In this document: positions 6,074-64,000 of the stretch, one piece after another
Position numbering within the stretch: the stretch's first letter is position 1
How the letters are laid out: the number at the start of each line of letters is the position of its first letter
From: a virus
Length of the DNA: 64,000 nucleotides
IMG/VR virus record: IMGVR_UViG_3300045988_164075
Strand: one strand, 5' to 3'
Translations under genes and position numbers: made by a program
Notes under the pieces: generated by a model
What the model saw: the letters and a program-made list of their open reading frames with translations, nothing else
The model's database searches: none
What the model was told of the DNA's origin: nothing

Positions 6074-6155
6074 AGCAATCCTCTTTTATTGTTTTATCTG
6101 AAATTAAACTATTTTTAATAGTAGCTAATTTTTGATTCAATTTTATATATTCTAT

Positions 6156-16463: not shown

Positions 16464-19400
16464 TATTCTTTAATCTTTCTAATAAATAATTTTGAACATA
16501 TTCATCTAATACAAGCAAGTTTTCACCTAATAGTTCAGGTTGTTTAAATATTTGATAATACATATTAGCTGTTTCAGCAGATATTTCTTTATTAGAAAAT
16601 AGATCACTTAAATAGTTTGTTATAGACTTTCTTATATTAGAAGGTATTATATCTTTAATACTAATAAAGTATTCATACATTTGTTTATAACTGTTAAATG
16701 AATCAAATCTAAGTAATTCTCACTTATTATTGATCTTTGTTATTGTATACCCACTAGTTTCATTTTGCAAAGATATATAAAATGGAATAAAATTCAAAGT
16801 ATATGTTGGATTATCCTGAATCCGAACAAAATTATTTGAAGGTAAATTTGCGTTTTCTAATTTATTTTTAATTAGATTATCCATATCCTTTACAGTAATA
16901 AGCCTATATTCACCTGTTATAGAATCTATTTCTATTTGAGAATATGTGATATCGTTAGTTAAACGTTTTAATCTATCATTAATTTTTTCAATATTTTGAT
17001 TAATATCTAAACTAGTCTCAGGAGATAGATTATTTTCTTTTAAAAACGTATTAAATCTATTTAATTGTTCAACTTGTTCTTTTTGTTGATTAATTTCTTC
17101 TTGTTGAATAGATGTTTTAATAATTTGTGTTTTATCAATTGCATATATAGGTCCATGAAATTTAGATATATCTACTTTATAGTCTTTACGAGGATCTGTT
17201 AGGCCAAATATGTATCGAGTAATTGGTTCTTTAGTCTTGTGATCCTGTGCATAAATGCCATTTTTAAATAGACTAGAAGTAGACATAATACTATTCAGAA
17301 TATCTAAATTTTCAACTCCTGTAGATAAAGTATCTAATATTTCATTTGCTGTATGTTGTCATACAGAATTAACAGGAACTCATTTATATGTTCCATTAGA
17401 TTTTATATATTTTTGATAATTGTGTTGAGCTAAATAAGTTTGTAAAGTTTTGGGATCAATATGTTCTTTAAAATCTAATCCGTACATATTTCCTATTTTC
17501 TCAACTAATAAATAAATATTATCAATCGAATTACTTGAAACAGAAGTTATTTTCTCATCAATACTTTTAACTTTTTTATTGTCGAGACTATATAATACAA
17601 ATTGATCATACTCTTGTTTTACTAAGAATGATTTTATTTCATTTTGTCCAGTATCCTTATTTAAATAATTTAATGTAAACATAATTCCAGGAACTCTCCT
17701 ATAACTATTTTCCTTGGGAGTTCTATTAGACGAAGTATCTCGTTCTTTAGTTATGTGTAATCTTAGGTTATTAAATAAGATTTTTCTTATTTCTGAATTA
17801 GATTTTGCTAAGTTTAATATTTCTGTTGTAATTTGCCCTGCTCTAGTAGCGTAGACAACTTGATAATCTTGTCGAGCATGTTCGTTATAAATAGGGTTAG
17901 TTGATATACCCATTTCCTTAGCTTTTTCTATCTCTATACTTCTTTTTGCTATTTTAGCTCTAGACTCGATAATAATTTCAGATAATTGTTTTACTTGTTG
18001 AACTCCAAATAATACAAAACGCGCGTCAGACTGGACTAAATATGTAACATTGTTTTCAGAATCTAAAGTTGGATGCATATCCTTCTTAAATTCCATACTA
18101 TTAAGCATAAGATCACTACTAATTAAACCCATTGCCTTACCAGTAATTGCTTTTGCAACGGTGCGAGTGCGTTCATCTTTAATAGAATCTAACTCTTCAT
18201 CTTTAACTACAAAGGTAATATAATAGGGAAGTATTGTAAAATAATTATTAGCATTTAAATTATAAACGTCTCGATTTACTATACCATCAGAATCGTACGT
18301 TATATCTTGAATCATTTTAATGTCGCCATTATAATCTCCAAAACTATTAATAGTTAAAAGAATTGGAATACGTACATTTCGAACTCCTTTATTATCGTTA
18401 ATTGATATATCAGCTACTAATAAGCCTTGCTTACCTCTATTATATGGAACGATCTTTAACTTAGCGTCTTGTAACGAATTAACAATAGCTTTGTTTTTAT
18501 CTCTATTACTAGGTGCTAATAGATTTAATGAAATTTCTAGACGATTTTTTGTTTGATTATGTGTTTTATGATGCCCATGTAAAAAATAATTTGATAAACG
18601 ATAAACATACTGTATATACTTTGATTTAGGAATAGATTTTCTAAATTCAAATTGTTTATAAATAGAATTATCATTCTCATTTACATCATAGTCTCATAAA
18701 TTATTTGTAAATCAATCTAAGGTTAAATCAGATTCTATTGTTATATCTGTATTACTTGGTCTTAATAATGGAGCACTTTTTACAATAGAAGTAGTCTCAT
18801 CAGTTTTAGAATAAACTTTTGGTTTAGATTCTAAATTTGTTTCAGAAACAGTATCTTCAATTGCATTCTCTAGTGGAACTTCTCCTGACGGAACTGTATT
18901 TTGAGATGATAATTGGGTTTCGTTTAGATTACGTTCACCAATATCACTATTAGCAATAGTTGGTTCTGATTTTTGAGATTTATCAATAGGAGTATTTACT
19001 ACTGTAGGTTGATTCTCCTTTTGATCTTTATCAATTGTTGTTTGAGCAATAGGAGTTTCAGGCGTAGAAAACTCTGGTTCATAAGTTAAGTTAGAATATA
19101 CTGGATTACTTTCAATATTTAAAAGCGATCGTAGTCTTCAATTTTTAAACGCATCAATATCATTTTGTTTAATTTCAATGTTATTATTAACCGTTTCATC
19201 AAACTGTGTAGTTATATTTAAAGTATTTCTAAGATATTTATCGCTATCTAATATAACTGATCCTAGTGTTGAACGTTGTGTTAAAGTATATAGATTACGT
19301 AATGTACCTCACTCTTGAGCTTTATTTCTTCATTCTTTATCAATAACAACATAGTCAAATTCAGATCCTTGAACTGCATCTAAATTAATAACTTTAGCAT

Positions 19401-22400
19401 TTTGTGGCAATCCTGTATATTTTTTAGGATTATCTGTTATGATTGCTATATCATTTGATAAATGTGATAATTTGTTAATATAGTCTAAAAGTTGATCATT
19501 TGTATCTACAATTTTCTCTCCAACAAAAGTATTATTGTTTTCGTAATATTCTAATTTAATTCCGCTATTTCAATAAGATTTTGTATGATTCGACAACTGG
19601 ATTGAATCAATATCGGGATTATCTTCATAGTATTTAATTCCTTTTTCTAATATTGCATTTAATGTTATATAATTATCATTTTTTGCAATATTATTTGGAC
19701 GTAAAGTAGCGGTTAGATTTGGAGATTTAATTAGATATGTATCTTCAATCCCTCCAACTACAGTTTTTGAATTAATTGTAATTATAGAACTATCTTGTTT
19801 TTTATCTCCAAATGCATATACCATTACATTATTTGTAATAGCTCAATTAGATATTAATTCTAATTCAGGGCGAGTAAAATGACTTATCTCATCAATAAAT
19901 AAAATTTTATTTGGAGTATTATCAAATAAACTAGTTACCTTTGGAATTATAAAGTCTTTTAATGTGATATAATCATTATGTAATTCATAATCGTCGGTAG
20001 TTAACTCTCTTCCAAGGATAGCTTTAATAAAATCAGCTTTATTAAATATTTTACTATTATCTGCTTTAATTGAAGTTGCTAACTTACTAGCTTGCTCAGA
20101 AGTTGGGGCTAATGAAATAAAGGAACTTGTTTCATTAAACAGTGTTTTTAATAAATAACCTACAGCAGTAGTTTTACCTGTTCCTGCTCCTCCAAATGTG
20201 CAATAAAAATTATATAGCTTTAATTTATTTTTAATATAGTCGCTTAAATTTGGATCACTTGGAACTAAACCATTAATAATTTTATTAAATAGTTCCTTGT
20301 TGTAATTCATTGCGTATCCGATTCTTACAGCATGTTCCTGTGAAAAAATTGGAATTTTATCAAACTCATCACTAGATATAATTGGTTTTAGAGCTGCATA
20401 AAAATTTTGGCTCGGAGTAATTATAATAGATGCTAAATACATTAATACATCATAATCAGTTATAATATTATCATTATTAGTATTTAGATCAGTAGATTTT
20501 TGTTTATACAACTCTTTATCGTCAAATAATGCAATTAATTTATTCGCTAAATCATCATTAGTAAGTTTCTGTTCATAAATTGTTTCAAATACCTCTGTCT
20601 CAAATTTAATTGCCGAATCCTCAAAAGTATTAAAATTTTCTTCAGTAACTTCTTCTGTGGGTTTATACTTATTTCAAATTTCATTTAAATTAATATGAAA
20701 CATATCAAATACTCTTTGTTTAATAAGACTATTCTCATTTGTTAAAGAATTAACAAATAATTGTTTCATATTAATTGTAATATCTTTTTGAACACGAGCT
20801 TTTTGTTCTTGATTTTTCTGTGATACTTCGAGTAAAATATTTAGTTTATTTTCTAATAATTCAATATCGTTTGATAGATTATAAAATGTTTCAAAATCAA
20901 TTTCAGGTAAAGATAAATTTCCTAGGTATTTATTAATAGAATTATTTATACCTTCTCCATCAAAGTTTACACTAGCATTTAATATAGATTTTATTCCTTT
21001 AAGAAATAATAATAATTGTTCTAATTGAGTTTTAGCGTTTTTATCCTGAATAATATAATCTTTAATGTTTTTACTTGCTATAAATTTGTTATGTTCATTT
21101 GCAATAATGTTTAATAATTGGCTAGGTTGCCCACCTAAACTAATTGCAAATACATTCAATAATTCATATATAGGAGATGCCTTAACTTGGGATCTAATAT
21201 TATAATATTCATTTAAATATTCATCTAAACGATAAGTTCCAATTCTTGGAAATACATAATTAAAGAAATCTTCAATTTGATTTTCATCTAAATCAGTTTG
21301 TTCTAATTGATTCCTTATTTCAGCAAATTTAGATAACACTTGTTCAGGATCCTCATCTAAAGATGCTTGTAATTCATCTAACAAATTATTGAAGTTTTCA
21401 TATCCAGTTATACTATAGTCAAATGAAACTGGATTTCCCATTAACTCTAAGTCGGGATTATTTTTATATAAATTTTGAAGTCAGGTAATATAACGTTGTT
21501 TATAAGACAAACTATTTTCGTCTTGCTGTTTTTTAACAGAGCGTAATAAAGTTAATACGTCTAAATCTCCAAAATCTGCTGATAAATTATTATTTTTTAG
21601 ATAACTATAAAAATTTAATATTGACTGAGCATAATTATCTATATCAGTTGTTGTAGATGATATTGGACGATGTAATATATCTTGTCCTTCAGTAGATATT
21701 GGATTAGTAATAAGTAATGCTGTATTTTCAGTATATTGTTTTTGAATATTCTGGAGTATTTCTTTTTCCGAAATTAGTCTATTTATTTCCTCAGAATTTT
21801 TTTCCTCATTACTTTTAAGTTCCTCTATTTTAGCATTAATAGCATCTAAGTTATTTGCAATTCTACCTAATGTAGAATAACGTAAACCGTATATATTATC
21901 TGCAACTTTTGTTTCGTCATTTATTTTTAGTAGAGAGTCTTTTAACTGTTGACTTAAATTTAAAAATAAATCGTATGCTTTATAAACTTTAGCTTTTTCA
22001 TCTAATTGCGTATACGCACTAAAGTTTTCTTTAGCTGTTTTTTGTAAATCTTCATTTAGTAAATCTAAGTCTTTTCCATACATGGTTTTTACATAATCGT
22101 GCAGACCCATATTTACAAATGCCTGATTTATAGCACTATTAGTTGCAAAAATAGCTTGTCCAAAATAATATCCAGTACGTTCTCCATTTAATATAGCGTC
22201 TCTACGTGCACGTAAATTATTGATTTCTTGATTTAATTTTTGTATTTCTAAATTTTGTGCATTTTGTTCTGCAATTGCTTTTTGCGTTTCATTAGTAATA
22301 GGAGTGTTTGGAGTAGGTTGATTTAATTTAGATAATTCTGCAGATTTACGAACAATTTGTTCTGTAATGTTATTAAAATCACTAAATATTTGTGTAGTAA

Positions 22401-24501
22401 CTCCTGATGCTAGTGCGGCTTCGGCTACTTTATCATAAGGTCTCCCTTCTTGATCATATACTTGAAGTTTTTTTAATGTTTCATCAGATACTTTTAAACC
22501 TTCTGATGACATTAACTTATCTACTCTATCAATGTAATCAAGTAATTGATCATATACAACATCGTTTTGACTTTCTTCCTCCTCTGCATTATGAAACTTA
22601 ATTTGAGTTTCATCTCCAGTGTTTACTAACTCATATGTTTTTCCTGATAAGTTTACATCGCCTAATTTGCCCTTTTTATGTAAACGAGCTAATTCATTTC
22701 TTATATCATCAGTACGTCCTTGACGTATTAAATAAACAATTTCTTGAGCAGTTTGATTATCAGATGTAGTAGCTAAATTACTACTAATTCCGTGTAATCT
22801 ATTTTGTCATTTTCCATGTAATTGAAATACGGGTCCTCCAATTGCACCTCCAAAGAAAGACATAGCATAACGTTGAGCAGCATCGCTAGCTGATCAACCA
22901 AAATCTAAACGTCTTTCACTTTCAGTCATATCAATGCCTAAAGCATCTCCTGCAGCAAACAAAGCTTTGGTTAAATCAGAAGTTACTTCTTCCATTACCT
23001 CTTCTGTTGCTTCATTTAATGCAGAATCAACTAATTCATTACTACTATACTTTGCAAATTGATTTTGAAAAAATTGCTTTCCTCTAACGATAAAATTGGC
23101 AGCTTGTTTAGGAGTTGTAACAGATCATTTTGTTAAGTTTTCTTTTACCTCTTGCGCTAAATCTTTAACTGCTTTTTTAGCTGGATTTTGGTCTAAATAC
23201 GTTCCTTTGAATAAGAAATTTCTAAAGTAATCCATATTCATCAATCCATACATTCCTCCCATAACACTTAACATACCTAAACCTGCAACAGCATCAGTTG
23301 CCCCAGCATTTTTAAATTCTGAATAAGCTTGTTGAGAAGATGTACCTGCCATATAAGCAAGTGCTAGATTTCTACCTAATTTTTGTACTCGAACTGATTC
23401 TGGAGCTCCAGTTAAAATTCTTGGTATTTGTCCAATAACTCTTTGTTGGAAAAGTTGTAAAGATGTATCTTCAATCATCTTTCCAAGATTTTCTCAACTA
23501 AACATATTTTGTTGAGAATAATCAGAAACGTTAGAATCAAACCTAGCTGCATAACCTTCTATTTGATTTAATTTTTTAATAAAATCTGAATCATTATCTC
23601 CTCCAATAATTCCGTTAATACTTTTCATTAAAGTAGGAATTAATTGCGCTAATTCAGTTCCTGCAGATAAAGCTCCATACACTGATCCAACATATGGTAT
23701 TAACATAGGACCTACCTTAAATACTAGTTTTGATATAGTTCCTCCTAAACTTTTATCTAAACCATCAGAATCAAAAAAATCATATTTGTTTCACGCAGAT
23801 CCGTCTACTGTTAAAGTATCTTCAATACCTAAAACTTGCTTACCATATATTTCTCGATTACCTAATGTTTCATAATAAGTATCCCCATCTTCATTAAATT
23901 TGAGATCTCCTTTTTTATGCTGTAACGTTCGTCCATCAACTACATGTGTTCCATCTTCATCTCATGTAGCTAATACTAATGTAGGTCTATTTAAAGCTTT
24001 TCAAATTCCACCTTTTTCATTTGGAGTTCAATCTTCAAACTTCTGAGTTTCTCAATTAAATACTTTATTCTGTTGAGCTATTTCTCTAAAACTCATTGTT
24101 TGATTACCTCTACCAAATACATATTCTAATCCAGCAGAACGTCTTTCAGGATTTGCAACCTTTTGTATTGAAGGCAAATTATCTTTTACTTTACTTCCTG
24201 CAGGAGCAAAATAATCGAATGGATCATATTCATAAGTTTCTAAGAGTTTATTTTCAAACTTATTATTTGCATAATCATTATAGACAGTTAAGGCACTCTG
24301 ATAGAAACGATTAAATTTATTTTCATCAAATTGTCCATTCTCATTTTTAAAAGCATCAATTACTTCAGGAATATTTTTATAATATTCTCTAGTATTTATA
24401 CTTGTATTATCTGGAGTAATATCATTATTAGCAAAATCCTGTAGAGTCATATTAGGTTGGAATAGCAGTGTTGCAAACCAATCATTCTTCTTATTCTCCA
24501 T
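16453..24501 (-). CDS. giant virion-operon protein, 2682 aa, with Gly-zipper/hydrophobic N-terminal region and an embedded SF1 (RecD/Dda-like) helicase domain
   Basis: ATG 24501 (MENKKNDWF) to TAA 16453-16455. All 10 same-frame track fragments are joined by TGA only (every gap walked, no TAA/TAG). Walker A is FGGAGTGKTTAVGYL, Walker B is ILFIDEISHF (19843..20511 fragment), and DAVQGSEFDYVVID lies at ~19340-19380. It overlaps the next start by 11 nt. Confidence 0.8.
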
Positions 24502-24514
24502 ATTATTGCTTAAA

Positions 24515-26335
24515 TTAAAAATTTGTTTTTATTGCATTTTGATTACGTTTAGCAATTGCTTGATTTAATATATCTCTATAGTTAGATGTTGGAACTAATT
24601 CATTATTTGATTGATATGTCGCTATTTTTGTATCTACGATAGGCATAAATATAGAAGATTTATACATACTTCACCTACTAGACTTAGCTTCATTTGCTGG
24701 TTTTTTAGATTTAGTGGAGAAACCCTCTCCATAATTGATTTGCGTATCATAATAATCGGTAATTTCTTTACCTTGTTCTGTAGGTAAATGGCTAATTCAT
24801 TTCGAATCTTCATCTAAAGGCATTACTCTACTATTTGCATACCCAGTCATTATAATAAATGGTTTAACTGCGTTTGTATTAAATACAAAATTTCCTGTTT
24901 GTGAATCATAAGTTACATCTAAACCTAGAGTTTTCGCCTTTTCAAATTTTTCAACATTGGTAATATCAGGGAAATCATTTAAAAATTTTTGAAATTCTTC
25001 AAATCGTTCTTGAGATTCAAAATCAGGTTTATATGATCCATCTTGCTCAATAGTATATGGAAGTAGTACTCTATTAACCTGACTCGTACCGTCTCACAAT
25101 ACTTTATTAATATCTATATCTCTCACTTTTTGATCTCCAAAATATATAGATGATTTATCTACAATTTTCCCGATATCTGCTTTATCAAGTAATTGTTGTA
25201 AATTGGTTTGAGGTACTATATTGCCATTTTTATCTACAGGAGCACCATATGATTGAGCATAAGCACTAATTGCTATTTTTGAATCTGCTGGACTTAGTAA
25301 CATTTGACGACCTTCAATAATTCTTCCATTTGCAAGAGCTTCCAATTGACTAAGCTCTGTTTCATCTGGTTTTTTAGAACTACCACTACCACTACTTAAA
25401 CTATCGGTCATTTCTTTTTGGAATGCTAATTCTCTAGAATGTGTAGTATGTTCAGTTAACGCTAATCCAAGTAAATTTAATACTTCTGTTTTTGAATTTG
25501 GATTTCCGCCTTCTGCCGCAGTTTTAACTCTTAAAGCATGTAACATGTTACTAGGAAGTGTAGTATATAGATACTCTAATGCTCTTTCTGTACCTTGATC
25601 TTTATTTGTTATTTTATAATATCCATCAGGTCCTCCCATTAATAAACTTCTAAAACCATCTTCGATTTGTTCCTTGTTTTTTAAGGTATATCCTTCAATC
25701 GTTTTAGTTCCAAAATCTTTTATAACACCTTTCAGATAATTAACAATACTTTCCATTCCAACTGAATTAGAAAGATTATTTAATATATCTTGTCGATATG
25801 CTAATTCAGGTTGATGTTCTCTTAAACTTAAGAGCTGTGAATTAGTTAAAGCTTGGTATTTATCTTTATTAGAATAATATTCTGAAGGATCTACTGTTGA
25901 AATTCCATCATTTTCAGAATATACATACATTCTACCTTTATCATCAACAGCTGCTTCTGCTCATGATCTTTCTTTGGATAGCTGTTCTGTAGCAGCATCA
26001 TATAATTGTTTATTAAATTTAGTTCTATTTGCTAATGAACGTAGTTTAATAATATCTGAAACATTATAACTTTGATTAGTCGCCCCAAATAAGTTAGCAG
26101 AAAAATTTTTACTTTTATCTAATACAGCATTTGCTTGACGCAAAAATGTATCTACATCTGTTGGAATTCCATTTTCTGATATAATTTCTAATGCCTCTTT
26201 TGTAAATGTATCATCATTTGACAAGGTATTATTTGAAGTAGCAGTAGATATATTTCCTTGAACATTCTCATATGCATTATTAGGAATAAAGGGGGTATAG
26301 TATATACCCCCTGCATTATATTTTCTTATTTTCAT
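24515..26335 (-). CDS. virion/internal protein, 606 aa
   Basis: Fragments 25961..26335 and 25094..25930 plus an unlisted 3' part share one frame and are joined by TGA. It ends TAA 24515-24517. The N-terminus is MKIRKYNAGG. Confidence 0.75.
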
Positions 26336-46007: not shown

Positions 46008-49000
46008 TTAGTCAGAGCTAACTAAAATAAATGAACGATAAGGATTGAATACGCCTACGCCTGCGTCTATGTTATTGTTAATCATTATATTACTATAATG
46101 TACAGACTATATCTTTAACTTATATATTTAAATATGAAACCTTTAGTTTGTTTTCTGAGTCCTTTAGCAACGTCTCTACATTTTGAAAATTCTTTAGCAC
46201 ACGCTCCTACAGTATCTCATACTTTAATTAGATTATTATTTAAATCGTATTGAGCAATTTTACGGCTTTCTCCAATTTTTAATTTTGGAAGTGATTGATA
46301 CACTTCTTTAGATTTTAAAATGTTATAAATTTCAGAAGGGTCCTTTAAAAAATAGTAACCTTTTGCTGAATTTTTTTTATTTAATGCTGAATATAAATTT
46401 GATTTAGTTATATCAAAAGATTTATATATATCTTCAGTATTTTCTCATTCAGCAATTAAATTTCCTTTTAAATCAAATTGATAAATTGTCGAAAACTTGT
46501 TTATCGTATATTCTTCAATATTTAATTTATCATATCTATTATAAGATCAGAATGAATTTTTGTAACTTCTTTTTTGTTTACAAGCATTATTAAAATTTTG
46601 ATAACTACATCCAAACTTTTCAGCTAAGTCTTTTATTCCAAAATATTCTTCTCAGAATTCGCCATTTAATTTATAACGATATACTGTTTTAAAACAAATC
46701 CCAGGATTAATTCCACCTAAACTAGTATTGTAATTATCTTTTCTTTTAATAAATTCTTTTGTTACAATCTCCTCCTCTTTTTTATATGCATCTAACTCTT
46801 CATTATAAACATATAAAATAGTTCTTCTAAAATTAGAGTATCCATATTTTTTTAGAGCGTATTGAAAAGCTGTTTTTGGATTTTTTAATAAATATCCAAT
46901 TTTAATTCCATTACCAATATATCCGTCAAATATATCTGGATTACTTGTTTTGTGTACCCCAATATAGATTTTTCCGTTAATTAAACACGTTGTACAATAA
47001 ACTATATATTTCATATTATTTAAGTTATCCTCTATTTTCCACTATGTTTAAGTGTACGCTCATTCGAGCTAGTCGTTGAACCTTACTTAGGATTACCTTA
47101 CTAGGCTTATCTTATCTAAGTCTTGGCTGCTGATTGTCCCAAGGGAGTTTCCAGCAATTAAAAGGATTTTTATATTATTATCACTAATAATAGGGACCTA
47201 CGCTGCGTAATTTAAGCCCCAGTTAATATATTTAGAAGCTGCTACAGGAGACGAAACTTGACCGCTTGACGTTCCGTTTTGTCCACCAACACCATTAATC
47301 CAGTTATGAACAATATCACAACCTTTAAATGTAAACATTTGAAGTGCTGGTTTGCCAGTTGCTGCATCTGCCGTTAGATCAAGGAATATACCGTATTTCT
47401 TATCAGGATATTCAAAATCAAACGAACGATCAATCTTAAATGTAATTTGATTCATTTATGTTAACTTATATTTTCATATAAGATCAGACTATATCTTAAT
47501 TTAATATACTATTACCATATATTAAATTCTCCCTATTTCGGAATAAATCCTACTCTACTTGGTTATTTTACAATATCTTTCTTATTGTATATCCTTTCGA
47601 TAGTCGTTGAACGTTTTCTAATAATTAGAACTTCGCTGCTGATTAGCATGTGTAATATTTACATTTAGCCTTCCAGCAATTAAAGGAGTTTTCTTTATAA
47701 TTAAAATATAAAGGAGCAATTATTTACCCGCAAATTCATAAGATTGATATGTTGCACCTAAATCAAGATATCCGTTAGAAGCTTTCGAGAACAAGAATGT
47801 TCCAACAGTCTTCCAATCACGAATCCAAGACGAAAGTGCATTTTGAACTTCATGCCACATCAACGTGTTGCAAATAAAGATATATTTGTTACCCGTTGGT
47901 CTTTCCGATTTAGTAGTCATTTGAGCAAGTACCTTATTAAAGATACGAACATTTAGATGTCCACTAAATACATATTTTCCAGCAAAACGTTCAATTTGGC
48001 TGATGATACCATCGCCAGAAATAATCATATTTGTGTTAACTTATATTTTCATATAAGATCAGACTATATCTTAACTTTATATACTGTTACCGCGTATAAA
48101 GTTCTCCCCGTTTCCATTTGATCAAATGTACTCTACTCATTTATTCATTAAGAGATTTCTTCTTAATTATACTTTCGATAGTCGTTGAACTTCCTTAAAT
48201 AAATTATTTAAGTTTAGCTGCTGATTGTCTTCATCTTTCATGTTCAGAGTTTCCAGCAATTAGAGGAGTTGTTTTAATTAGTTTACTAATTTAGCAGCCC
48301 ATTATTTCTTTAGGTTGCTGTGTTTCGGGATCAAAAATCTTAGGTTTGCCAAATTTATCTACATTAGTTTTACCCCAAAGTAATGCGTTATTACGAGCAA
48401 ACATGTAGGTATCTAAGCAATCTTTTTGTGCAGGATTAAGTTTGTAAACAGGATCGTCTTGCTGACCTTTACCGATTTGGATAAATACATCTTCCATTGC
48501 GGCATATTTAGCAGACCAGCTTACATCTGCACGATGGGTCGAGATAAATGTCCGATGCTTTTCGGTATTCATTATGTTATCTTATAGTTTCCTATAAGTT
48601 CAGACTATATCATTAACTTTCCTTTAATTTAAATATGAAATTTTTACAATGTTTACTTTGGCCTTTTATACAGCGTCGAACGCCTTGTCCATATTGTTGT
48701 ATCGCTTCCGTAATTGAGGAAAATTCTTTAATAAAGTTCCCTTTTAAATCAAATTGTTGTACAATCTGTTTCTGGTTATTTAATTTTAACTGTTTTGCGC
48801 AATCGACTTTTTCTAAATATACCTGAAATCCTTTAAATGTTCTACCTAAACGAATTGCTGAAGATATAGATGAAGAACTTTTAAGTCCAAATTCTCTTGC
48901 ACAAGCTATTGGAGAAGAAAATTCTTTATAAAAAGTTCCATCTAAATTATATAGGTATATTTTACAATTTTTAATTGACTTTGTTTGAGTTAAAGGAAAT

Positions 49001-51020
49001 TTTTCAAAAAATTCTCTAGAATAATATTTACCATTCACAGAATATTTACCTTGTATGGCCCTGTTAATAGTAGTTCTACTTACGGAATACTTTTTTATAA
49101 TATCTGTTACAGAATCATAACTTTTAATAAAATCTAAATTTTCATTAAATTCATAAATACTTCCAGGATTGAAAATATTAAAATCTTGAATGTTTAATTT
49201 AGATGTATAATAGGTTGTTCATAAACTTTTTTGTGAAGTAGATTTAAATTTAACCGCATTTTCAATACTAGTTGTAGAGCAACCAAAACATTCCGCAGCT
49301 TTTTTATACGAACTATAAGAATCAATAAAAGCTCCTTCAAGATCATATTGGTAAATAGTAATAGATTGATCTGGACCTTTTTTTCCTCCAACAATAGCAT
49401 TATATACATACGGTTTTTTTATAAACTCTTCATTTACAATTTTTGATTCTAAAGAAAATGCTTCTTCTGCTGTATCAAATACAGCTAATGTATATCTTCT
49501 AAAAGCGTTAACTCCATACTTATTTATAGCATATTGAAAAGGAGTCTTAGAATTCTTATATGTACTTGGTTGATTAAAATAACAACCGCAACCTAAATAT
49601 CCATCAAATATATCAGGATTTTTTGTTGAGTGAACTCCTATATAGATTTTATTATTTATTGTATTTACTGTAATATATAGAATTGTTTTCATATTTATAC
49701 TTTTATAAAGTTATCTCCCATTTCAGACTGTAGTCTTACTCCCTATTGGGATAGTCGTTGAACCTTATTTAGCATTTCGTCAATGACGCTTATGTAATCT
49801 AAATCTTGGCTGCTGATTACCATATTACTTTTAACTTAGGCTTCCAGCAATTAAAGAGATTATTCGATGTTGCTTACGCAACAAAGGAGCAATACATTTT
49901 TGTTTTACTCTGGTATTTTGTGTAACCTTCCTCCAAGTTACAACTAATTTTCTTACTGTTTCCAATAAGTTTAGACTATATCACCCTCTTTACTTCTATT
50001 ACCGTTATAAAGAGGCTCTCCGTTTCGGTGTTACCCTACTCTACTCACTTCTTCACTTATATATTTCTTATAAGCTATGTTTTCGATAGTCGTTAAGCAC
50101 AATCTCTATATAAGAGATCTTCGCTATGGATTGGCATATCTTATTTATTATAAGACTTAGCTTTCCCATAATTAGAAGAGTTTAATCGAGTAGCTTACGC
50201 TACAAGTGCACAAAGAAGTTTATGCATCTCAGGTTGATAGTTCGTTAAGAAACGCGTATTCATACCAGGCTGACAAGCAGAAAGATCAAGTACTTCACTA
50301 TAATCGTCACCTTGTAATTTACCAACTACTTCCCAATCGTTGTCGCGACGTCTAATCGGACGATTTAGAACAATAACCTGTTGACGAGAACCTTCAATAA
50401 TAAAGGTATCGTTTTTCTGATAGTAGTTTTCAGGGAAATGGAAGATAATATCTGATCCATTTGCGCCATTACCTTCAGGTACAGTTAGGAAGTGTACTCT
50501 TTTAATACGGTTTACATTAATATCCCATTCAACCATGAACGAGTTAATACTTTGAAAAGCATTGGGTCTACCTTTGTCTAGAGTATATACGTTCATTAAT
50601 GCTTCAGTAAGATGCGTAGCAGTATACTGATCATACAATGAAGATACGATACCTAAACGAGCAGGATTTGCCATGCTTGTTGTTATCCTATAAGTTTTTT
50701 ATCTTATAGTTCTTACAATTTACCATCTTGTAAGGTCGGCATACGTTTTCATCTAATAGATGTTGCGTACTCTTGGAGATATTATATTCTTTATAAATAA
50801 AGTTTCAATCTCTATGCTCTACGGTGAATATATATATTATTATATATTTTACCTCGGTGTTGCCGCTGAGAATTAGGACGGTTTCGCCGATTTTACGCAA
50901 TTTTTCAATAAGTATTTCTACCTAAAGGGGCGCTCATCCACCCAAGAACTTCATAAAGTCCTCTGCAGTACGAGTCGAAGCCATTTCGGGACGTACTGTT
51001 GTAAAATTAGATATTCTCAT
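46008..51020 (-). CDS. putative major capsid protein, a mosaic gene of 7 exons and 6 group I introns, 476 aa after splicing
   Basis: Exons are 50940..51020, 50222..50671, 49907..49951, 48312..48569, 47726..48025, 47215..47452 and 46008..46066, totalling 1431 nt (477 codons including TAA). The joined frame is open, with 9 TGG and 0 TGA. The capsid assignment rests on position (after an acidic scaffold-like gene), size and expression signals, not on a search. Confidence 0.7.
46067..47214 (-). mobile_element. group I intron E with GIY-YIG endonuclease (1148 nt)
   Basis: P1 is GGGGCU/GGUCCC (U.G at the junction) and P10 is GCGU/ACGC. P TAATTGCTGGAAAC, Q CAATCAGCAGCC and R GGTTCAACGACTAGC lie at ~47071-47160, and S AGATATAGTCTG at ~46100-46113. 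The P9 hairpin CATTATA-GTAA-TATAATG is followed by an end at ...AACATAG. Confidence 0.85.
46115..47014 (-). CDS. GIY-YIG homing endonuclease (299 aa, four in-frame TGA=Trp)
   Basis: MKYIVYCTTCLINGKIYIGVH is the GIY...YIG motif. Track ORF 46652..47014 continues through TGA (hand translated) into repeated DNA-binding modules (YQFDLKGNLIAE(W)ENTEDIYKSF, QYDLNNNLIKV(W)DTVGACAKEF). The TAA at 46115-46117 abuts the S element. Confidence 0.85.
47453..47725 (-). mobile_element. group I intron D, ORF-less (273 nt)
   Basis: The 5' site follows GCGGGU (P1 GGGU/GCUC). P, Q and R are at ~47600-47690, S at ~47482-47494. The P9 hairpin CTTATAT-GAAA-ATATAAG is followed by the tail TTAACATAAATG. Confidence 0.8.
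48026..48311 (-). mobile_element. group I intron C, ORF-less (286 nt)
   Basis: P1 is ACAGCAACCU/GGGCUGCU (8 bp, 1 mismatch). P10 is GAAAUAAU/AUUAUUUC (8 bp). P, Q and R are at ~48180-48270, S at ~48060-48072. Its 3' 39 nt are identical to intron D. Confidence 0.85.
48570..49906 (-). mobile_element. group I intron B with GIY-YIG endonuclease (1337 nt)
   Basis: P1 is GAGU/GCUC and P10 is GUAUU/AAUAC. The P2 hairpin is GTTGC-GTAA-GCAAC. P, Q and R are at ~49750-49860, S at ~48601-48612. The P9 hairpin CTTATAG-GAAA-CTATAAG is followed by the tail ATAACATAATG. Confidence 0.85.
48613..49692 (-). CDS. GIY-YIG homing endonuclease (359 aa, one in-frame TGA=Trp)
   Basis: Track ORFs 49219..49692 (MKTILYITVNTINNKIYIGVH) and 48613..49038 are in the same frame. 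The 180 nt between them were hand translated and contain only TGA at 49219. The TAA at 48613-48615 abuts the S element. Confidence 0.85.
49952..50221 (-). mobile_element. group I intron A, ORF-less (270 nt)
   Basis: P1 is UGCAU/GUGCA. The P2 hairpin is GTAGC-GTAA-GCTAC. It has P AATTATGGGAAAGC, Q AATCCATAGCG (a compensated P4), R GCTTAACGACTATC and S GTGATATAGTCTAAAC. It ends after the P9 hairpin CTTATTG-GAAA-CAGTAAG. Confidence 0.75.
50672..50939 (-). mobile_element. putative divergent group I intron between a 27-codon leader exon and the main capsid ORF (268 nt)
   Basis: This is a GC-rich, hairpin-dense insert. The candidate P1 is GGGU/GCCC after ...UUCUUGGGU, and the candidate P3 is UUGCGU/ACGCAA. 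There is a GAAA-capped hairpin TAGGTA-GAAA-TACTTA. The 3' hairpin CTATAAG...CTTATAG plus tail GATAACAACAAGCATG resembles the other introns. It lacks the canonical R/S sequences. Confidence 0.5.
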
Positions 51021-51064: not shown

Positions 51065-52138
51065 TTATCTATAATATTTATCGTATAGATCAGAAAGTGT
51101 TTTAGGTTTTTCAGATTTATCGTTAGCATTAGTTTTATCTACTACTGTTTGACTAGCAGAAGAATTTTTATTACTTTTTGCTGTACGACGTTCCTGTTTT
51201 AAAATATCTTTCCAATATTCGCTAATATTTGAAATAGCATCTTGTCCAAAAAGTCTATACCATGCTAGTTCAACTAAAACTTTTGGATCATTTAAATCTT
51301 TAAAAAACTGACTATATCCATTAGTATCTTGTTCTAGTAAATAAGATAATATTTTAGATTTTTCATCATCTTCAATAACCAAAACATCACTTTCTGGATC
51401 TTTATAATCAAAAGATATTTCTTTAAAATTAGAAACAGATTCAGTTAAAGCAGAACGAAGTTGATTATATTCCTCTTCTTCTCTTCTTTGTGCTTCTAAG
51501 GCAGCTTCTTTCTCTTTTTCCTTATAGTCATTTCGAATAATCTCAACTTTCTTTTTAAATAAATCTTCATTCTCCTTTGCTTTATCTAATTCATACTTTA
51601 ATTCTTCATCTGACATACTAGTATATCTTGCTTTTAAATCTGCAAAGTATAATTCATCATCAGAATATGAATCTACATCGTAGTGTTGTTCTGGAGCATT
51701 ATTATTTAATGAAGCTTTATATTCTTCAACAGCAGTCTGTTTAAAATAATCTATTGCTTGTTCTAGTGTAACTCCATTATTTCTAAGCCACTGTACAGTG
51801 TTTATTTCTGATTCAGATAAATCAGGAGTAGAAAGTTCTTTGAGAATTGTTAACTGTTCTTTTCCGCTTAAAGAATTAAAATCTACTTCTTGAATTTCTC
51901 CATCTTCTGTTTCATATTTAATCTTTGAAACATCTTCAATACCTTTCTCTTTTAAGAATTCTTCAATAGGATTAATATCTACTTCTTCATTTGAATCACT
52001 ATTACTTTGATTCTCTAATTCAGGTTGACTAATCTCTCCTGTCTCAGTTGTACTAGATCCTTCTACCTCAACTTGCTCAGTTGTAGTAGTTTTATTATCT
52101 TCTAGTAAACTATCAAATAAATTTGGTAATTCTGCCAT
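51065..52138 (-). CDS. acidic coiled-coil protein, scaffold-like (357 aa from ATG 52138)
   Basis: This is track ORF 51065..52168, but its first 10 codons overlap the promoter -7 box, so ATG 52138 (MAELPNLFDSLLEDNK) is preferred. It is Glu/Asp/Lys-rich with 3 TGG and 0 TGA, and lies immediately upstream of the capsid gene. Confidence 0.7.
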   Translation of the reverse strand: MAELPNLFDSLLEDNKTTTTEQVEVEGSSTTETGEISQPELENQSNSDSNEEVDINPIEEFLKEKGIEDVSKIKYETEDGEIQEVDFNSLSGKEQLTILKELSTPDLSESEINTVQWLRNNGVTLEQAIDYFKQTAVEEYKASLNNNAPEQHYDVDSYSDDELYFADLKARYTSMSDEELKYELDKAKENEDLFKKKVEIIRNDYKEKEKEAALEAQRREEEEYNQLRSALTESVSNFKEISFDYKDPESDVLVIEDDEKSKILSYLLEQDTNGYSQFFKDLNDPKVLVELAWYRLFGQDAISNISEYWKDILKQERRTAKSNKNSSASQTVVDKTNANDKSEKPKTLSDLYDKYYR

Positions 52139-52167
52139 TAACTTATTGTTTCTTATTATTAATTTCA

Positions 52168-52198
52168 CAAAATTAGACTTTTAAAAACTAAAATCAAA
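52168..52198 (-). promoter_or_regulatory. Bacteroidetes-type promoter (-33 TTTG / -7 TAATTTTG, 19-nt spacer)
   Basis: The minus strand reads TTTG (rc of 52195-52198), N19, then TAATTTTG (rc of 52168-52175). It is ~30 nt upstream of ATG 52138. Confidence 0.6.
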
Positions 52199-58943: not shown

Positions 58944-61900
58944 TTAAATTATCCCCCCTCCATTTTGATTTCAGGCGTATCCTTGAGTTTTTTCTACTCC
59001 ACTCATATCGTGTCATACAAAAGAAAAGTTAAGAGTTCTACCTGGACCTAAACTAGCATAATAAACAAATGAATTATTACCAGGTCCAGTTCCCTGAACA
59101 GTAGCTCAAGCAACATTAACAGAAAAGAACAAATAATCCTGTACATAAGTACCTGAGTATATAGTATATCCAGATTTCATTTTAGAAGTTCCTGTAGTCA
59201 TTACTGTCATAGAACAAGTACCTCCATTTCTATCTCCTCTCACAGGATTAAAAAATCCTGAATTAAAGGATGGCATCATAAGATAATTTTCTTCTTGATA
59301 AACTTTTATAGTAGCTACCTGTTGTTTTCCATTCATAATTACAGACACATTACTTGTAGTTAATAATGTATCTCCATTTGTAGCATTAGCTCCTAAACTA
59401 GGAGCAGTAACAGTGCCAGTTCTAGCATCAACATTTGTACCAGAATATGTAATCGATGCTCCTGACGTTATTGTACCACCTCCAGTAGTAGCTCCGTTAT
59501 ATCCATAAGTTTGAGAATATGATAAGTTTGGAGATACTGAACCACCTCCAGCAGGTGCATTTGGATAAGTAAAGTTAGTAATTGTTATAGGACCATAAGT
59601 TTTAGTTCCTGCACTCTGTTGAATTGTTAAATTAACGGTTTTAGTTTTTCCTTGATGATTTGCTGTAAATTTAACAGTACGTGTTTTTACCGTAGACGTA
59701 TTATTAGCAGAAACAGTAAGAATTGAACCGTTTATAGTTCATCCTGAAACATTTGTAGTATAAGTACATATTGCAGAATCAAGTATATTTTCATTTCCAG
59801 CACTATATCCTGAAGTATAAGTTACTTTTTGCGTTATACCAGTTATATAATTTGATAAATATACTTGCCCACCGCCGCCAGCTACAGAAATAGCAGATAT
59901 TTGATATGTTATATCTATATCTCCATAAGACTTACTATTAGCTTGTTGTTGAACTTTACCTGTAGTCGTTGAATTAATAGTTAATGTATTTCCTGAATAT
60001 GGACTCTTAGGAGTTCATGTATATTTAAGAGTTTTCGTAATTACAGGCGATGTTGTTACACCCGAAACTGTAGCACCTTTTGAATTTGCAGTTACTACTC
60101 CAGTAGAAGTATTAAGCGTCGCAAATGTTCCTGAAGATCCAGGTCAAGAATATGTTCTTGCCATACTGCCTGCTCCGTATGTTGCAGCAGGAGTTGTAGT
60201 TGTTGTTCCTCCTGATGTAAATGTAAAAGTTATAACATTATCACTATTCGTAGATGGACTAGAATTTCCTCCACCTGCTCCAATCTGAGTATATGTTAAG
60301 TTTTCTGTTTTATTAAATGCTACTTTTGTTACATAATTCGCTTGTTGATATATATCTACAGATTTAGTATCAGATGATACTCCATTCATTGTTATTACTA
60401 AATTTGCCTTAAGTACTACTCTCCTTGTAGTATACGTTGTACCACAAGAATTTGCTGTAACTACTCCCGTTGAAGCATTAATAGCACCCCCATTAACTGA
60501 ATTTGTACCAGTTCATTTAGCTGTAGCTCCTGATGTTAAATTAGATAGCGCTTCGGTGTAACCAGATGTATAATTTTGTGTTCTACTCTGTGTATAAGAT
60601 AATGTAGGACTTACTCCTGTTCCTGCTGCATTTATATCACTATAAGTTAAAGTATTAATAGTAGGTTTACCATAAGTAATAGATGTTTTAGCATTAGCTG
60701 CAGTATAAAACGTTGCCTGAGCTATAACTGTACCAGTTGCAGAACTCTGTCTTAAATATATTGTATAACTTTTTCGATCTCTAATTACATTATTGTAAGA
60801 AGTTTTATTTAATGTACTAGTAGTTGTACTAGAACTATTTGTATAGTTACTTTTACTTAATGATAAATAATCTGTTCCACTTAAAGTTAAATATGCAGTT
60901 CCAGTTCAATACTCTGTAGTTGCTGTTCCAACATCACCTGTACTATATACAGGAGTTTTTGTTCTTCTAATAGAACCTCAAGTAATTGTTTTAGATCCAG
61001 CTCCAGCGGGTAAATCTCCAGATGGAACAGTTAACGTTCCAGTTCAATTTCCATAATTATAACTTACTATTTCGTTAGCAGCTTGAGTTAAAGTTAGTGT
61101 AGCATTGGCAGAAATACTAGAATTTGAATATCTTAATGTAGCAGTTCTAGCTGCTCCAGCTACTGTAGTTCTATCTGCTGCAGTAACTTTTACTGCATAA
61201 TTATGATAAGAAGACTGAGCTATACTAAATCCAGTTCCAGATATTGTTCATATATTACCTGGTGCAACAGTTGTATCAAAATTAGTACTTTCAGATGTAT
61301 AAGTTAGATGAGCATAATACCCATCAATAGTTTGTCCTCCAACTGCAAACGTTGTTGTTTGATTTGTAGAATTTGCGTTAGTAATACTAGTTGCAGTTAC
61401 GGCATTAGCTTGTTGATAAACTACTATTGTATCTGTGTCTGTACTTGTAAGAGTATCTCCTCCAACTGAACTTGGATTAGTAAATTTTAAAGTTAAACTA
61501 GCGTTTACGCTAATACTTCTACGTGCCCCAATCACTGTAGTTCTGTTATCTCCAGTAACTATACCGCTAGAATTTACAGACATTCCTGTTGCAGAACCAC
61601 TATACGTTCTACTCACTACTGTTTGTGCTCAGAGACTATTAACTTCTGAATCAGCAGAGGTTTTTACAGTTTCCGATGAAAATACATATTTACATGCTCC
61701 TCTACCTTCAGGATTCTTAGTACCACCTTTAGCTGGAATATCACCTGCAGGATATGTTAAATTCGTTGTATAACCTGATTGTGGTTGAGCTGTAATTGAT
61801 TCTACTTTATTTAGTGCTTGAGTTGCTTTAATATCACTTCTACTATATGACCCTGTTTTAGTACCACCTAGCGTATAATTAGCAGAATGTGTTCAAGTAA

Positions 61901-64000
61901 GAGTAAACGTTCGAGTTATAGGATTTGACTGAGTTGCAGCAGATATTGTATAGCCCTTAGATGATACAACTACTTGACTACCAGCCATACCTGTAAAAGT
62001 ACCTGTCGGAGTCATTGAATAAACAGCATTTCCGTTTAATGTACCATATGTAGAAGCTGGAGTTGCAGAAGATGTAGATCCAGATGTAAATGTAAAAGTT
62101 TGAGCATATTGTCCTCCTCCCTGTGCAGCGTACGTGCCACCTTTAGCTGGAATTGTAGGATAGGTAATTGTTTCAGTACCTTGAGCTACTGCTATATTTG
62201 TTACATAATTAGCTGCTTGTGGTGGTTGAGCAAATACTTTAACTGTTTTCCCATTTAAAGTAAGATTTATTTCTGTTACTCTTCCTCTATGATCTGCAGT
62301 ACTAAGAGCACATAAATTATCTATATTAATAGTCATATTAGGAAGTGTTCAAGCCCCCGTAGAAGTATTAAGTCCAGTACTACTAATGCCTGCTTCTAAT
62401 ACTGTCATATAAGCTAAATCAACTGTGAGTGGATTTACTTCTGTTCCTGGGTTTCCATCACGTAAACTAAAAAAGAATACAGAACTTACAGTTCCTGTAC
62501 CATAAGTAACTTTTGCAGTATAATTCTGTCAATCTCCAGTACCCTGTGAGGATGTTAATCATTCAATAGTGCCTCCTGTACCTAAAGAATTATAACCTAA
62601 TTGAAATCTATAACCTTTAGGTACTTTTGCAACAAATGTACAATAATAGGTGTTGCTGGCAAGTCCAGTATAAGACATACCAAATCCTCCTAAATTAGGA
62701 TTTGTTCCAGAACCTTTGTTTTGCCAACGCATTATATATCCTCCGTTTACTGAAACGGGATTTGTTGCAGCAACTCTCGTTAAAGTACACTTGCCAGAAT
62801 TAGCATTATCATATACGAATACATTTTTTACATCTACTGTAAATGCAGGATTAGCTAATCACGGTTGAGATAACCTAGCAACAGGCGAAACAACTAAAGA
62901 CTGTTTATATGTAATAGTTGCTCCAGATGTAATATTATTAGTTGCTCCAGATGTATATGTAGTAGATTGCGAATAACTAACTGTTGGTACTCCAGAATCT
63001 CCACCATTAGCAGGAACAACTTTAGTATATCGAGCAAATACACTAGGTGTAGAATACGTAGCATTATTGGCTTGTTGTTGAATTGAATAAGCTAAACTTG
63101 CATTTCCATAAGAAGCAGTTCCTGTAGCAGTTAAAATGGTTCCTACTGTAGTTCCTCTAGAAGGAGCAGTAATCTTATTACCAGATAATGTTCATCCGTT
63201 TGGAGTAGAAGTAGCAGATAATATAGGAGTAACAGAAATACTACTTGTTGCTGTAGAAGATCCGTTTCAATAGGTATTATAAGTACCGCCTATTGTAACA
63301 CTTCCGCCAGAAGCAGGAATTGTTGTAATTCCACTTAATACTAATTCGTATCGAACTGTTCCAGCAGATTGAGTTATAGTAACTTGAGCTTCTTTTCCAT
63401 CATAACTAACTTTATATATTCCAGATCTAGTTGTTGTAGTTTTATTCTCATCAAAAGTTATAACTCTTTCAGATAATGAACCAGTTCCACTTATTTTACT
63501 AAATGTAGCTAATGAATTAATGTCTATTGTTTGAGTTTCACTAGAAGAATTTGTTTGATATCAATCACTACAAGTTCCATTAGAAAAAATAGCTCTTTTA
63601 TATGTAATACTTCCTTTAGTTTGAGTAGCAGTAGCAGATAAAGCTACAGTACCTCCTGTATTAGCTATATTTGTTGTAGGTGATTTAGTAATATTTATAG
63701 AAGTAGTAACTCAATCTTCACTAGTTTCTGTTTTTTCTTCTTCTGATATTTTATAATAAAATCCGTTTCATGCAGCTAAATCAAATAATGGAGATATATC
63801 TCCTTCACAAATTCCGCAAGAATAAAATTGTACTGTACCTAAAATGCTATTAATTCCAGCTGCATAATTATCTTTGAATACACGATCGTTTCTGACATTA
63901 TAATACAAATATCATCCGTTTCCTAAATCAATTTTCTTATCGTTAATTGTAGGAGATAGTGTAGCATTTGTAGCTGTTCACTGACTAAATATTCAATTAT
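58944..64000 (-). CDS. giant repeat-rich tail fibre, 5'-partial (>=1685 aa in window), with BACON/Ig-like tandem modules
   Basis: One frame is open from the window edge (64000) to TAA 58944-58946. All 84 sequence lines were walked as triplets and only TGA interrupts. Modules recur with ...V.V/I.QQ.AN.V... strands (IKVYQEENY, DIYQQANYVT, VVYQQANAVT, LTIQQSAGT), PA.GG loops and SG(W)T motifs. Confidence 0.8.

What the first reader, a model, noticed from the sequence alone, without database searches (positions are those of the whole stretch)
49907..49951. A 45-nt micro-exon sits between two back-to-back introns
Intron A ends at G 49952 and intron B begins at 49906. This leaves 45 nt (AAAATTAGTTGTAACTTGGAGGAAGGTTACACAAAATACCAGAGT, KISCNLEEGYTKYQS) that is open in exactly the frame required by both flanking exons. 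Its last 4 nt (GAGU) pair with the intron-B guide GCUC. Its first 3 nt can pair with the UUU preceding the intron-A guide. Fifteen codons must be recognised as 3' exon by one ribozyme and as 5' exon by the next, which is an unusual constraint on folding order.
Basis: inference. Interest (0 to 1): 0.7.

Follow-up and report, generated by a model that had tools for sequence, protein, structure and literature searches.

The report
27-nt exon between two group I introns
A phage capsid gene is interrupted by six self-splicing introns, and two of them sit only 27 bases apart (not 45 as first read), leaving a nine-codon exon that encodes exactly the conserved peptide found in uninterrupted relatives.

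Summary
The core observation holds, but one boundary is wrong. Two complete group I ribozymes (Rfam RF00028, 74 and 54 bits) lie back to back on the minus strand inside a major capsid protein gene.

Intron B starts at 49906 as stated. Intron A does not end at G49952. It ends 18 nt further on, at G49934. The exon is therefore 27 nt (49933..49907, EEGYTKYQS), not 45 nt.

Evidence for the corrected boundary:
- 119 of 120 intron-less homologues have exactly 9 residues between PE[LM]H and N.E, and none has KISCNL.
- Strains with 97-100% identical exons that lack intron A read ATGCAT|GAAGAGGGT without interruption.
- Only G49934 gives a 7/7-bp P10 (GAGGAAG/CUUCUUU) next to P1. G49952 gives 3 bp.
- All sister introns carry an 11-28-nt tail after the P9 hairpin.

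It is not a twintron. In the window, P10 of A (exon nt 1-7) and P1 of B (nt 24-27) do not overlap, so no splicing order is forced.

The gene has six introns. Related strains show nine insertion sites, 6-7 introns per gene, and exons as short as 9, 15 and 18 nt. Small exons between phage or organellar group I introns are already documented, so this is a new member of a known kind in an unusually intron-dense gene. Splicing itself is inferred, not shown.

The parts
50940..51020 (-). MCP exon 1 (27 codons, MRISNF...KFLG)
   Evidence: Aligns to the N-termini of homologues. Placed by the spliced map.
50672..50939 (-). Intron 0 (268 nt), a divergent group I intron
   Evidence: Must be removed to join exon 1 to ANPARLG. 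Only a weak RF00028 match, 20 bits, E=0.0046 in a 331-nt search. P1 is GGGU/GCCC. Present in all close relatives whose sequence covers this site.
50222..50671 (-). MCP exon 2, ending ...NYQPEMH. Its last 5 nt UGCAU (50226..50222) form P1 of intron A.
49934..50221 (-). Intron A, a 288-nt group I intron without an ORF. P10 guide CUUCUUU at 50218..50212, P1 guide GUGCA at 50211..50207, terminal G at 49934.
   Evidence: RF00028 74.2 bits over 50231-49952. 3' end fixed by homologues, by intron-A-less strains and by the P10 scan.
49934..49951 (-).
   Evidence: Absent from all homologues. Identical tail in L056. Sister introns have tails of 11-28 nt after P9.
49907..49933 (-). The micro-exon: 27 nt GAGGAAGGUUACACAAAAUACCAGAGU = EEGYTKYQS. 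Nt 1-7 pair in P10 of intron A and nt 24-27 pair in P1 of intron B.
   Evidence: Same arrangement in an independent contig, L067.
48570..49906 (-). Intron B, a 1337-nt group I intron with an endonuclease ORF in the P8 loop. P10 guide GUAUU at 49895..49891, P1 guide GCUC at 49890..49887, terminal G at 48570.
   Evidence: RF00028 54.0 bits (5' part, 49916-49690) and 27.1 bits (3' part, 48739-48581). Junction AGAGT|AATACC is uninterrupted in strains lacking B.
48613..49692 (-). Homing-endonuclease ORF inside intron B (359 aa, one in-frame TGA at 49221..49219 read as Trp)
   Evidence: Pfam NUMOD1 E=6.9e-20 and I-HmuI NUMOD-like E=4.6e-8, the latter downstream of the TGA. PHROG 314 homing endonuclease E=1.1e-22 spans the TGA. 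GIY-YIG only below threshold, E=0.013.
48312..48569 (-). MCP exon 4 (NTEKHRTF...ETQQP). Its first 5 nt AAUAC form P10 of intron B.
48026..48311 (-). Intron C (286 nt, group I)
   Evidence: RF00028 71.8 bits. P10 of 9 bp.
47726..48025 (-). MCP exon 5
47453..47725 (-). Intron D (273 nt, group I)
   Evidence: RF00028 70.6 bits
47215..47452 (-). MCP exon 6
46067..47214 (-). Intron E (1148 nt, group I), with a second endonuclease ORF at 47014..46115 that has four in-frame TGA codons
   Evidence: RF00028 45.6 and 24.8 bits, both below the gathering score. An ORF-less 279-nt version sits at the same site in L067, L053, L055 and L057, and the site is empty in L052.
46008..46066 (-). MCP exon 7, including the stop codon

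Best explanation
Two separate group I self-splicing introns have inserted 27 nt apart in the most conserved block of a phage major capsid protein gene (minus strand). Intron A (50221..49934, 288 nt, no ORF) recognises its 5' splice site through P1 (exon UGCAU with guide GUGCA, U.G wobble). It recognises its 3' splice site through a 7-bp P10 between the adjoining guide CUUCUUU and the first 7 nt of the micro-exon, GAGGAAG, with G49934 as terminal G. Intron B (49906..48570, 1337 nt, endonuclease ORF in the P8 loop) uses the last 4 nt of the same exon, GAGU, for its P1 with guide GCUC. It uses AAUAC of the next exon for P10. Removing both introns joins ...NYQPEMH | EEGYTKYQS | NTEKHRT..., which is the uninterrupted sequence of intron-less relatives. 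The tandem arrangement comes from independent homing events at neighbouring sites of a hot spot. It is not a nested twintron. Shown here: the ribozyme cores, the pairings, the exact junctions by comparison with empty-site alleles, and conservation of the peptide. Inferred: that both introns actually splice in vivo, and that the endonuclease drives their mobility.
For: 1. Two full RF00028 matches above the gathering score lie side by side. Seven paralogous introns of this gene family give a consensus fold with 54 pairs, 39 of which show compensatory changes.
2. All 20 aligned intron-less homologues have 9 residues, not 15, at this position. Across 120 homologues, 119 have exactly 9. The 27 nt encode the consensus EEGYTKYQS, including invariant G, Q and S.
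3. There are natural empty-site alleles. Strains L051-L055 have exons 97-100% identical in nucleotides. They lack A and B and read ATGCAT|GAAGAGGGT and CAGAGT|AATACC without interruption.
4. In a scan of every G from 49963 to 49908, only G49934 gives 7/7 contiguous P10 pairs. G49952 gives 3.
5. P10 is a general rule in this family. It averages 5.1 bp with an intron's own 3' exon and 1.3 bp with mismatched exons.
6. An independent metagenome contig (OLWB01000021.1, L067, 99.3% identical) has the same A + 27 nt + B arrangement.
7. A more distant relative (L058, 52-57% aa identity) has an analogous 36-nt exon between two RF00028 introns.
8. Sites a, x and b fall in the 90th-100th percentile of protein conservation. 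That fits homing-endonuclease target choice.
Against: - There is no RNA evidence. Splicing, its efficiency and its order are inferred.
- P1 of intron B is only 4 bp.
- G49952 is in frame, directly follows a P9 hairpin and could serve as a minor alternative 3' splice site, adding KISCNL.
- Skipping the exon would keep the reading frame, so frame alone does not prove inclusion.
- The capsid identity rests on weak profile matches: PHROG 11589 at E=3e-5 for this protein and Pfam Crass_capsid only in homologues. The structure model was too poor to use.
Confidence: 0.9

Rival explanations
1. Intron A ends at G49952 and the exon is 45 nt, so the capsid protein carries an extra KISCNL.
For: - The Rfam model ends at G49952.
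- The 45 nt are open and in frame.
- AAA can pair with UUU of the guide, 3 bp.
- Use of alternative 3' splice sites by group I introns in vivo is documented (Sellem and Belcour 1994, as cited in PMC3073962).
Against: - No homologue has the six residues.
- Empty-site alleles join CAT directly to GAA/GAG.
- P10 is 3 bp here against 7 bp at G49934.
- In all sister introns the Rfam model end also lies 11-28 nt before the junction defined by homology.
Confidence: 0.04
2. There is no exon at all. A and B act as one composite or nested intron (twintron), or the exon is normally skipped, joining PEMH directly to NTEKH.
For: - Skipping keeps the reading frame, since 27 nt is 9 codons.
- Exon skipping between tandem phage group I introns has been seen experimentally in Twort and in SIOphi (PMC11878797; PMC3073962).
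Against: - Each intron has its own complete core, P1 and guide sequence, laid end to end and not nested.
- The nine residues include invariant positions in all homologues.
- The P10 guide of A pairs with only 2 nt of the exon after B (by eye, from the sequences).
Confidence: 0.02
3. The gene is a decaying or non-functional copy, or the arrangement is an assembly artefact, and the introns no longer splice.
For: - Six interruptions in one essential gene is extreme.
- Intron 0 and intron E score below the Rfam gathering threshold.
- The sequence is from a metagenome.
Against: - All seven exons are intact and in frame, and they are 97-100% identical to those of several independently assembled strains.
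- No second capsid gene was seen.
- The intron cores keep their pairings through compensatory changes.
- The same arrangement occurs in a second contig.
Confidence: 0.03

Closest known systems
[quoted passage not shown]
   Same: A phage protein-coding gene with two self-splicing group I introns separated by a small internal exon. That exon was found only after close inspection.
   Different: The phiNIT1 case is backed by cDNA and lies in a nucleotide-metabolism gene with two or three introns. Here the gene is a capsid gene with six introns and there is no RNA evidence. I could not retrieve the size of the phiNIT1 exon.
Staphylococcus phage Twort orf142: three similar group I introns in one gene, with exon skipping (Landthaler and Shub 1999, as cited in PMC3073962 and PMC11878797)
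   Same: Several related group I introns in one structural phage gene, with short internal exons. Upstream and downstream ribozymes may interfere with each other.
   Different: Twort has three introns. This gene has six, and relatives have seven. Exon skipping is demonstrated in Twort and untested here. I could not read the original paper.
Placozoan mitochondrial cox1 single-nucleotide exon flanked by two group IB introns (Osigus et al. 2017, PMC5436844)
   Same: A micro-exon created when a second group I intron inserted next to an existing one. It was first misread as a single intron.
   Different: That case is organellar and the exon is 1 nt. Here the genome is a phage and the exon is 27 nt (9-18 nt in relatives).
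TGA-recoded 'Agate' gut phages whose group I intron endonuclease prefers TGA for Trp (Borges et al., bioRxiv 10.1101/2021.08.26.457843)
   Same: A gut-phage-like genome of low G+C in which TGA is a sense codon, with intron-encoded endonuclease ORFs containing in-frame TGA.
   Different: That intron is described in an early gene. A multi-intron capsid gene is not mentioned. Membership of this window in the Agate clade was not tested.
Twintron (one intron nested inside another)
   Same: Two ribozymes in close proximity that must both be removed.
   Different: Not nested. The two introns lie side by side with a coding exon between them, and each has its own P1 and P10.

Membership tests
Group I intron (Rfam RF00028): intron A | Conserved catalytic core (P3-P9) scoring at or above the family's gathering threshold | tested here: met
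   74.2 bits against a threshold of 50, full model 1-253. Helices are supported by compensatory changes among 7 paralogues.
Group I intron (Rfam RF00028): intron A | 5' splice site after a U that forms a U.G wobble with the internal guide sequence (P1) | tested here: met
   UGCAU/GUGCA, 5 bp, ending in U.G.
Group I intron (Rfam RF00028): intron A | Terminal G at the 3' splice site, with P10 pairing between the guide and the 3' exon | tested here: met
   G49934, followed by GAGGAAG pairing with CUUCUUU, 7/7. The junction is confirmed by empty-site alleles.
Group I intron (Rfam RF00028): intron B | Conserved catalytic core scoring at or above the gathering threshold | tested here: met
   54.0 bits for the 5' part. 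The 3' part (P7', P9) is matched separately at 27.1 bits because the 1080-nt ORF splits P8.
Group I intron (Rfam RF00028): intron B | U.G at the 5' splice site, terminal G and P10 | tested here: met
   GAGU/GCUC (4 bp), G48570, and P10 AAUAC/GUAUU (5 bp). The junction is uninterrupted in L051-L055.
Group I intron (both introns) | Guanosine-dependent self-splicing of the transcript | not testable with these tools
   Needs in vitro transcription and splicing, or RNA from infected cells.
GIY-YIG homing endonuclease (ORF in intron B) | GIY-YIG catalytic domain (Pfam PF01541) at or above the curated cut-off | tested here: not met
   16.2 bits against a cut-off of 22.6, E=0.013. The NUMOD1 and I-HmuI NUMOD-like DNA-binding modules and PHROG 'homing endonuclease' are significant. 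So it is a homing-endonuclease-like protein whose catalytic class is not established.
Twintron | One intron inserted inside another, so that the inner one must be removed before the outer core can fold | tested here: not met
   The two cores are complete and sequential, with a conserved coding exon between them.
Major capsid protein, crAss-type (Pfam PF23898) | Match to the family profile | tested here: inconclusive
   The spliced protein itself has no Pfam hit at E<=0.001 and only a weak PHROG 11589 'major head protein' match, E=3e-5. Homologues at 62-72% identity match PF23898 above its cut-off, E=1e-8 to 3e-11. No PDB sequence match. The structure model was poor.

The most novel reading that the evidence does not exclude
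The capsid gene of this TGA-recoded gut-phage lineage may be the most intron-dense bacterial or phage protein gene yet described. It has at least nine group I insertion sites among strains with near-identical exons and 6-7 introns per gene. Four or more sites fall within about 50 nt of the most conserved block. Internal exons go down to 9 nt, and in that case the whole exon is claimed both by P10 of the upstream ribozyme and by P1 of the downstream one. Splicing there would have to be ordered or cooperative. The pile-up could act as a late-expression gate or as an anti-competitor weapon, rather than being neutral parasitism.
Probability: 0.4. Interest if true: 0.7.

Novelty: new member of a known kind. 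Interest (0 to 1): 0.5.

Why it matters
For annotation: gene callers break this capsid gene into fragments, and a covariance-model hit alone places the 3' splice site 18 nt too early. The micro-exon is recovered correctly only by combining homologue alignment, empty-site alleles and P10 pairing.

For biology: the locus and its relatives form a natural series of the same gene with different combinations of 6-7 group I introns and exons of 9-40 nt. That series could be used to test three things:
- how neighbouring ribozymes that share a few exon nucleotides fold and splice without skipping;
- how homing sites cluster in conserved sequence;
- whether intron load controls the timing of capsid expression in a recoded phage.

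The micro-exon itself is not a new principle. Small exons between group I introns are known in phage phiNIT1 and in organelles.

Tried and rejected
- **Megablast of the 5.1-kb gene against GenBank phages.** Only a 36-nt hit, so no annotated close relative.
- **tblastn against the same collection.** Two unannotated gut phages with uninterrupted homologues at 48-54% identity. Useful only as further intron-less examples.
- **Exact-pattern scans of viral contigs for the A/exon/B junction.** No hits. The metagenome scan found one contig.
- **AlphaFold2 model of homologue P0001 with a 22-sequence alignment.** Mean pLDDT 47.9, and the segment holding the micro-exon peptide was below 50. Not used, and no fold search was run.
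- **Profile search of PDB sequences.** No match.
- **Reading the Twort paper (PMC22036).** Not held, so the sizes of the Twort exons could not be checked.
- **First conservation-percentile calculation.** Distorted by my own placeholder columns and redone.
- **An I-TevI-like cleavage about 25 nt upstream of site b explaining why site a is 27 nt away.** I found no CNNNG motif at that distance by eye and did not pursue it. It remains speculation.
- **Synonymous differences in the micro-exon (GAGGAAGGT versus GAAGAGGGT) covarying with intron A's P10 guide.** Rejected, because both versions pair 7/7 with CUUCUUU.
Full report
**What is at the coordinates**

On the minus strand, Rfam's group I intron model (RF00028) matches 50231-49952 (74.2 bits) and 49916-49690 (54.0 bits). 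Two further matches lie downstream at 48323-48040 and 47735-47465. These are the only matches above the gathering score in the 64-kb window.

A more permissive search adds 47224-46974 (45.6 bits). It also adds the 3' portions of two ORF-bearing introns, at 48739-48581 and 46205-46083.

Intron B starts at 49906. GAGU at the end of the exon pairs with GCUC in the intron. The 45 nt 49951..49907 are open in frame.

**The boundary test**

I assembled the putative spliced protein and searched for homologues. This gave 506 hits, most of them full-length uninterrupted proteins of 447-480 aa at 60-78% identity.

- In an alignment with 20 of them, every homologue has ...PE[LM]H-xEGYxKYQS-NxEKHRT.... KISCNL aligns to a gap in all of them.
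- Over all 120 retrieved proteins, 119 have exactly nine residues and one did not match the search pattern. None has fifteen.
- The nine residues encoded by 49933..49907 (EEGYTKYQS) equal the consensus. They include the invariant G, Q and S.

**Empty-site alleles**

A scan of viral contigs returned strains whose capsid exons are 97-100% identical in nucleotides to the window but which carry different introns.

L051-L055 lack introns A and B. They read ATGCAT|GAAGAGGGT and CAGAGT|AATACC without interruption. This fixes both junctions of the micro-exon to the nucleotide.

Intron A is therefore 50221..49934 and intron B is 49906..48570. The exon is 49933..49907, 27 nt. A spliced-alignment map reproduces these coordinates in the related loci.

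**RNA-level support**

Intron A begins AAA-CUUCUUU-GUGCA. GUGCA pairs with the exon end UGCAU (P1, ending in U.G).

The adjoining CUUCUUU pairs with GAGGAAG, the first seven bases of the 27-nt exon. That is the canonical P10 geometry. Among all G residues from 49963 to 49908, only G49934 gives 7/7 contiguous pairs. G49952 gives 3.

Across eleven introns of this gene family with homology-defined junctions, P10 averages 5.1 bp with the intron's own 3' exon. With mismatched exons it averages 1.3 bp.

In every sister intron the Rfam model also ends at the P9 hairpin, 11-28 nt before the real junction.

Seven paralogous introns give a consensus fold of 54 pairs. Of these, 39 have compensatory changes.

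**Why it is not a twintron, and what about folding order**

The two cores are complete and lie end to end. Each has its own P1 and P10.

In the window, the P10 segment of A (exon nt 1-7) and the P1 segment of B (nt 24-27) are 16 nt apart. Neither intron has to wait for the other.

The guide of A pairs with only 2 nt of the exon downstream of B. P10 therefore does not favour skipping. Skipping as a minor product cannot be excluded, because it has been observed in Twort and SIOphi (PMC11878797).

**Independent occurrence**

A metagenome contig (OLWB01000021.1, L067) is 99.3% identical to the window. It has the same A + 27 nt + B arrangement, while its intron E lacks the endonuclease ORF. This argues against a window-specific assembly artefact.

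**The wider picture**

The gene runs from 51020 to 46008 and has six introns: 0, A, B, C, D and E. Intron 0 is divergent, at 20 bits.

Among close strains there are nine insertion sites, after CDS positions 81, 531, 540, 558, 580, 800/801, 816, 1116 and 1354. Each genome has six or seven introns.

| Loci | Arrangement |
|---|---|
| L056, L057, L064 | Three RF00028 introns back to back, separated by exons of 9 nt (GAGGAAGGT) and 18 nt |
| L051-L055 | A 40-nt exon between introns x and y |
| L052-L055 | A 15-16-nt exon (GAAACACAGCAACCT) between introns c1 and c2 |
| L058 (52-57% aa identity) | A 36-nt exon between two RF00028 introns, one of which again sits at site b |

In L056 the 9-nt exon is fully paired in P1 of the downstream intron (9 bp, or 12 bp counting the last three bases of intron A).

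Sites a, x and b lie in the most conserved stretch of the protein, the 90th-100th percentile. That is typical of homing targets.

**Context**

The window has 28.5% G+C and is TGA-recoded. Stop-to-stop ORFs cover about 50% under code 11 and nearly all of the sequence under code 4.

Neighbouring long ORFs use TGA for most Trp codons. The spliced capsid CDS uses none (0 TGA, 9 TGG), and the same holds for the scaffold-like ORF upstream.

The intron ORFs do use TGA. The domain matches continue past it. This resembles the TGA-rich intron endonuclease reported for 'Agate' gut phages (bioRxiv 10.1101/2021.08.26.457843).

The catalytic class of the endonuclease is not established. GIY-YIG scores below threshold.

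**Comparison with what is known**

Small exons between group I introns are documented in phage phiNIT1 with cDNA evidence (PMC11878797). They are also documented in organelles, down to 1 nt in placozoan cox1 (PMC5436844).

The literature I could search reports at most three group I introns in one phage gene. Six or seven in a capsid gene may therefore be unreported, though my search covers only open-access text.

**Verdict**

The feature is real, with one corrected boundary: a 27-nt, nine-codon exon between two independent group I introns. It is a new member of a known kind, set in an unusually intron-dense gene. Splicing, its order and endonuclease activity remain inferred.

Noticed in passing
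window 50672-50939 (-) and 50940-51020 (-): A sixth intron ('intron 0') separates a 27-codon first exon (MRISNF...KFLG) from the rest of the capsid gene. It misses the Rfam gathering score (20 bits, E=0.0046 in a small search), but homologue alignment requires its removal. Every close strain whose sequence covers this site has it. In L058 the same site holds an intron that scores 66 bits.
   Followed up: partly
whole window; for example ORFs 1631-6085, 16456-24528 and 58947-63998 (-): The genome is TGA-recoded. Under code 4 the minus strand becomes a run of very long ORFs (up to 2691 aa) that use TGA for most Trp codons (for example 24 TGA against 2 TGG). G+C is 28.5% and no tRNA gene is in the window.
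   Followed up: partly
window 46008-51020 (spliced capsid CDS) and 51065-52168 (-): The capsid CDS (0 TGA, 9 TGG) and the scaffold-like ORF upstream (0 TGA, 3 TGG) avoid TGA entirely, although they sit among heavily recoded genes. All group I introns of the window are in this one standard-code gene. No explanation was tested. Candidates are high expression, timing, or gene conversion with standard-code relatives.
   Followed up: no
window 48613-49692 (-) and 46115-47014 (-): Two paralogous endonuclease ORFs sit in the P8 loops of introns B and E, with one and four in-frame TGA codons. They have NUMOD1/NUMOD-like modules and only a sub-threshold GIY-YIG match. The ORF in intron E is missing from the otherwise 99.3% identical contig L067, which has a 279-nt ORF-less intron at the same site.
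   Followed up: partly
L056 6454-7345 (also L057 and L064): Three group I introns lie back to back (RF00028 73, 53 and 60 bits), separated by exons of 9 nt and 18 nt. The 9-nt exon is completely paired in P1 of the downstream intron and mostly needed for P10 of the upstream one, so the two pairings exclude each other.
   Followed up: partly
L052-L055 (for example L053 6463-8801 and 9023-9599); L058 1929-3578; L043 about 4967-5995: Further tandem-intron arrangements occur in the same gene. L051-L055 have a 40-nt exon between introns at EEG|YTK and after NTEKHRT. L052-L055 have a 15-16-nt exon ETQQP between two introns. L058 has a 36-nt exon. L043 has an intron one nucleotide away from site x. 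Together these give at least nine or ten distinct insertion sites.
   Followed up: partly
L053 6463-6490 versus L056 6751-6775: The guide sequences of the two versions of the intron at site x differ (GCUCUCUUC versus GCUUUCCUU) in step with synonymous differences in the exon (GAAGAGGGU versus GAGGAAGGU). This includes one A-U to G-C compensatory change in P1.
   Followed up: no
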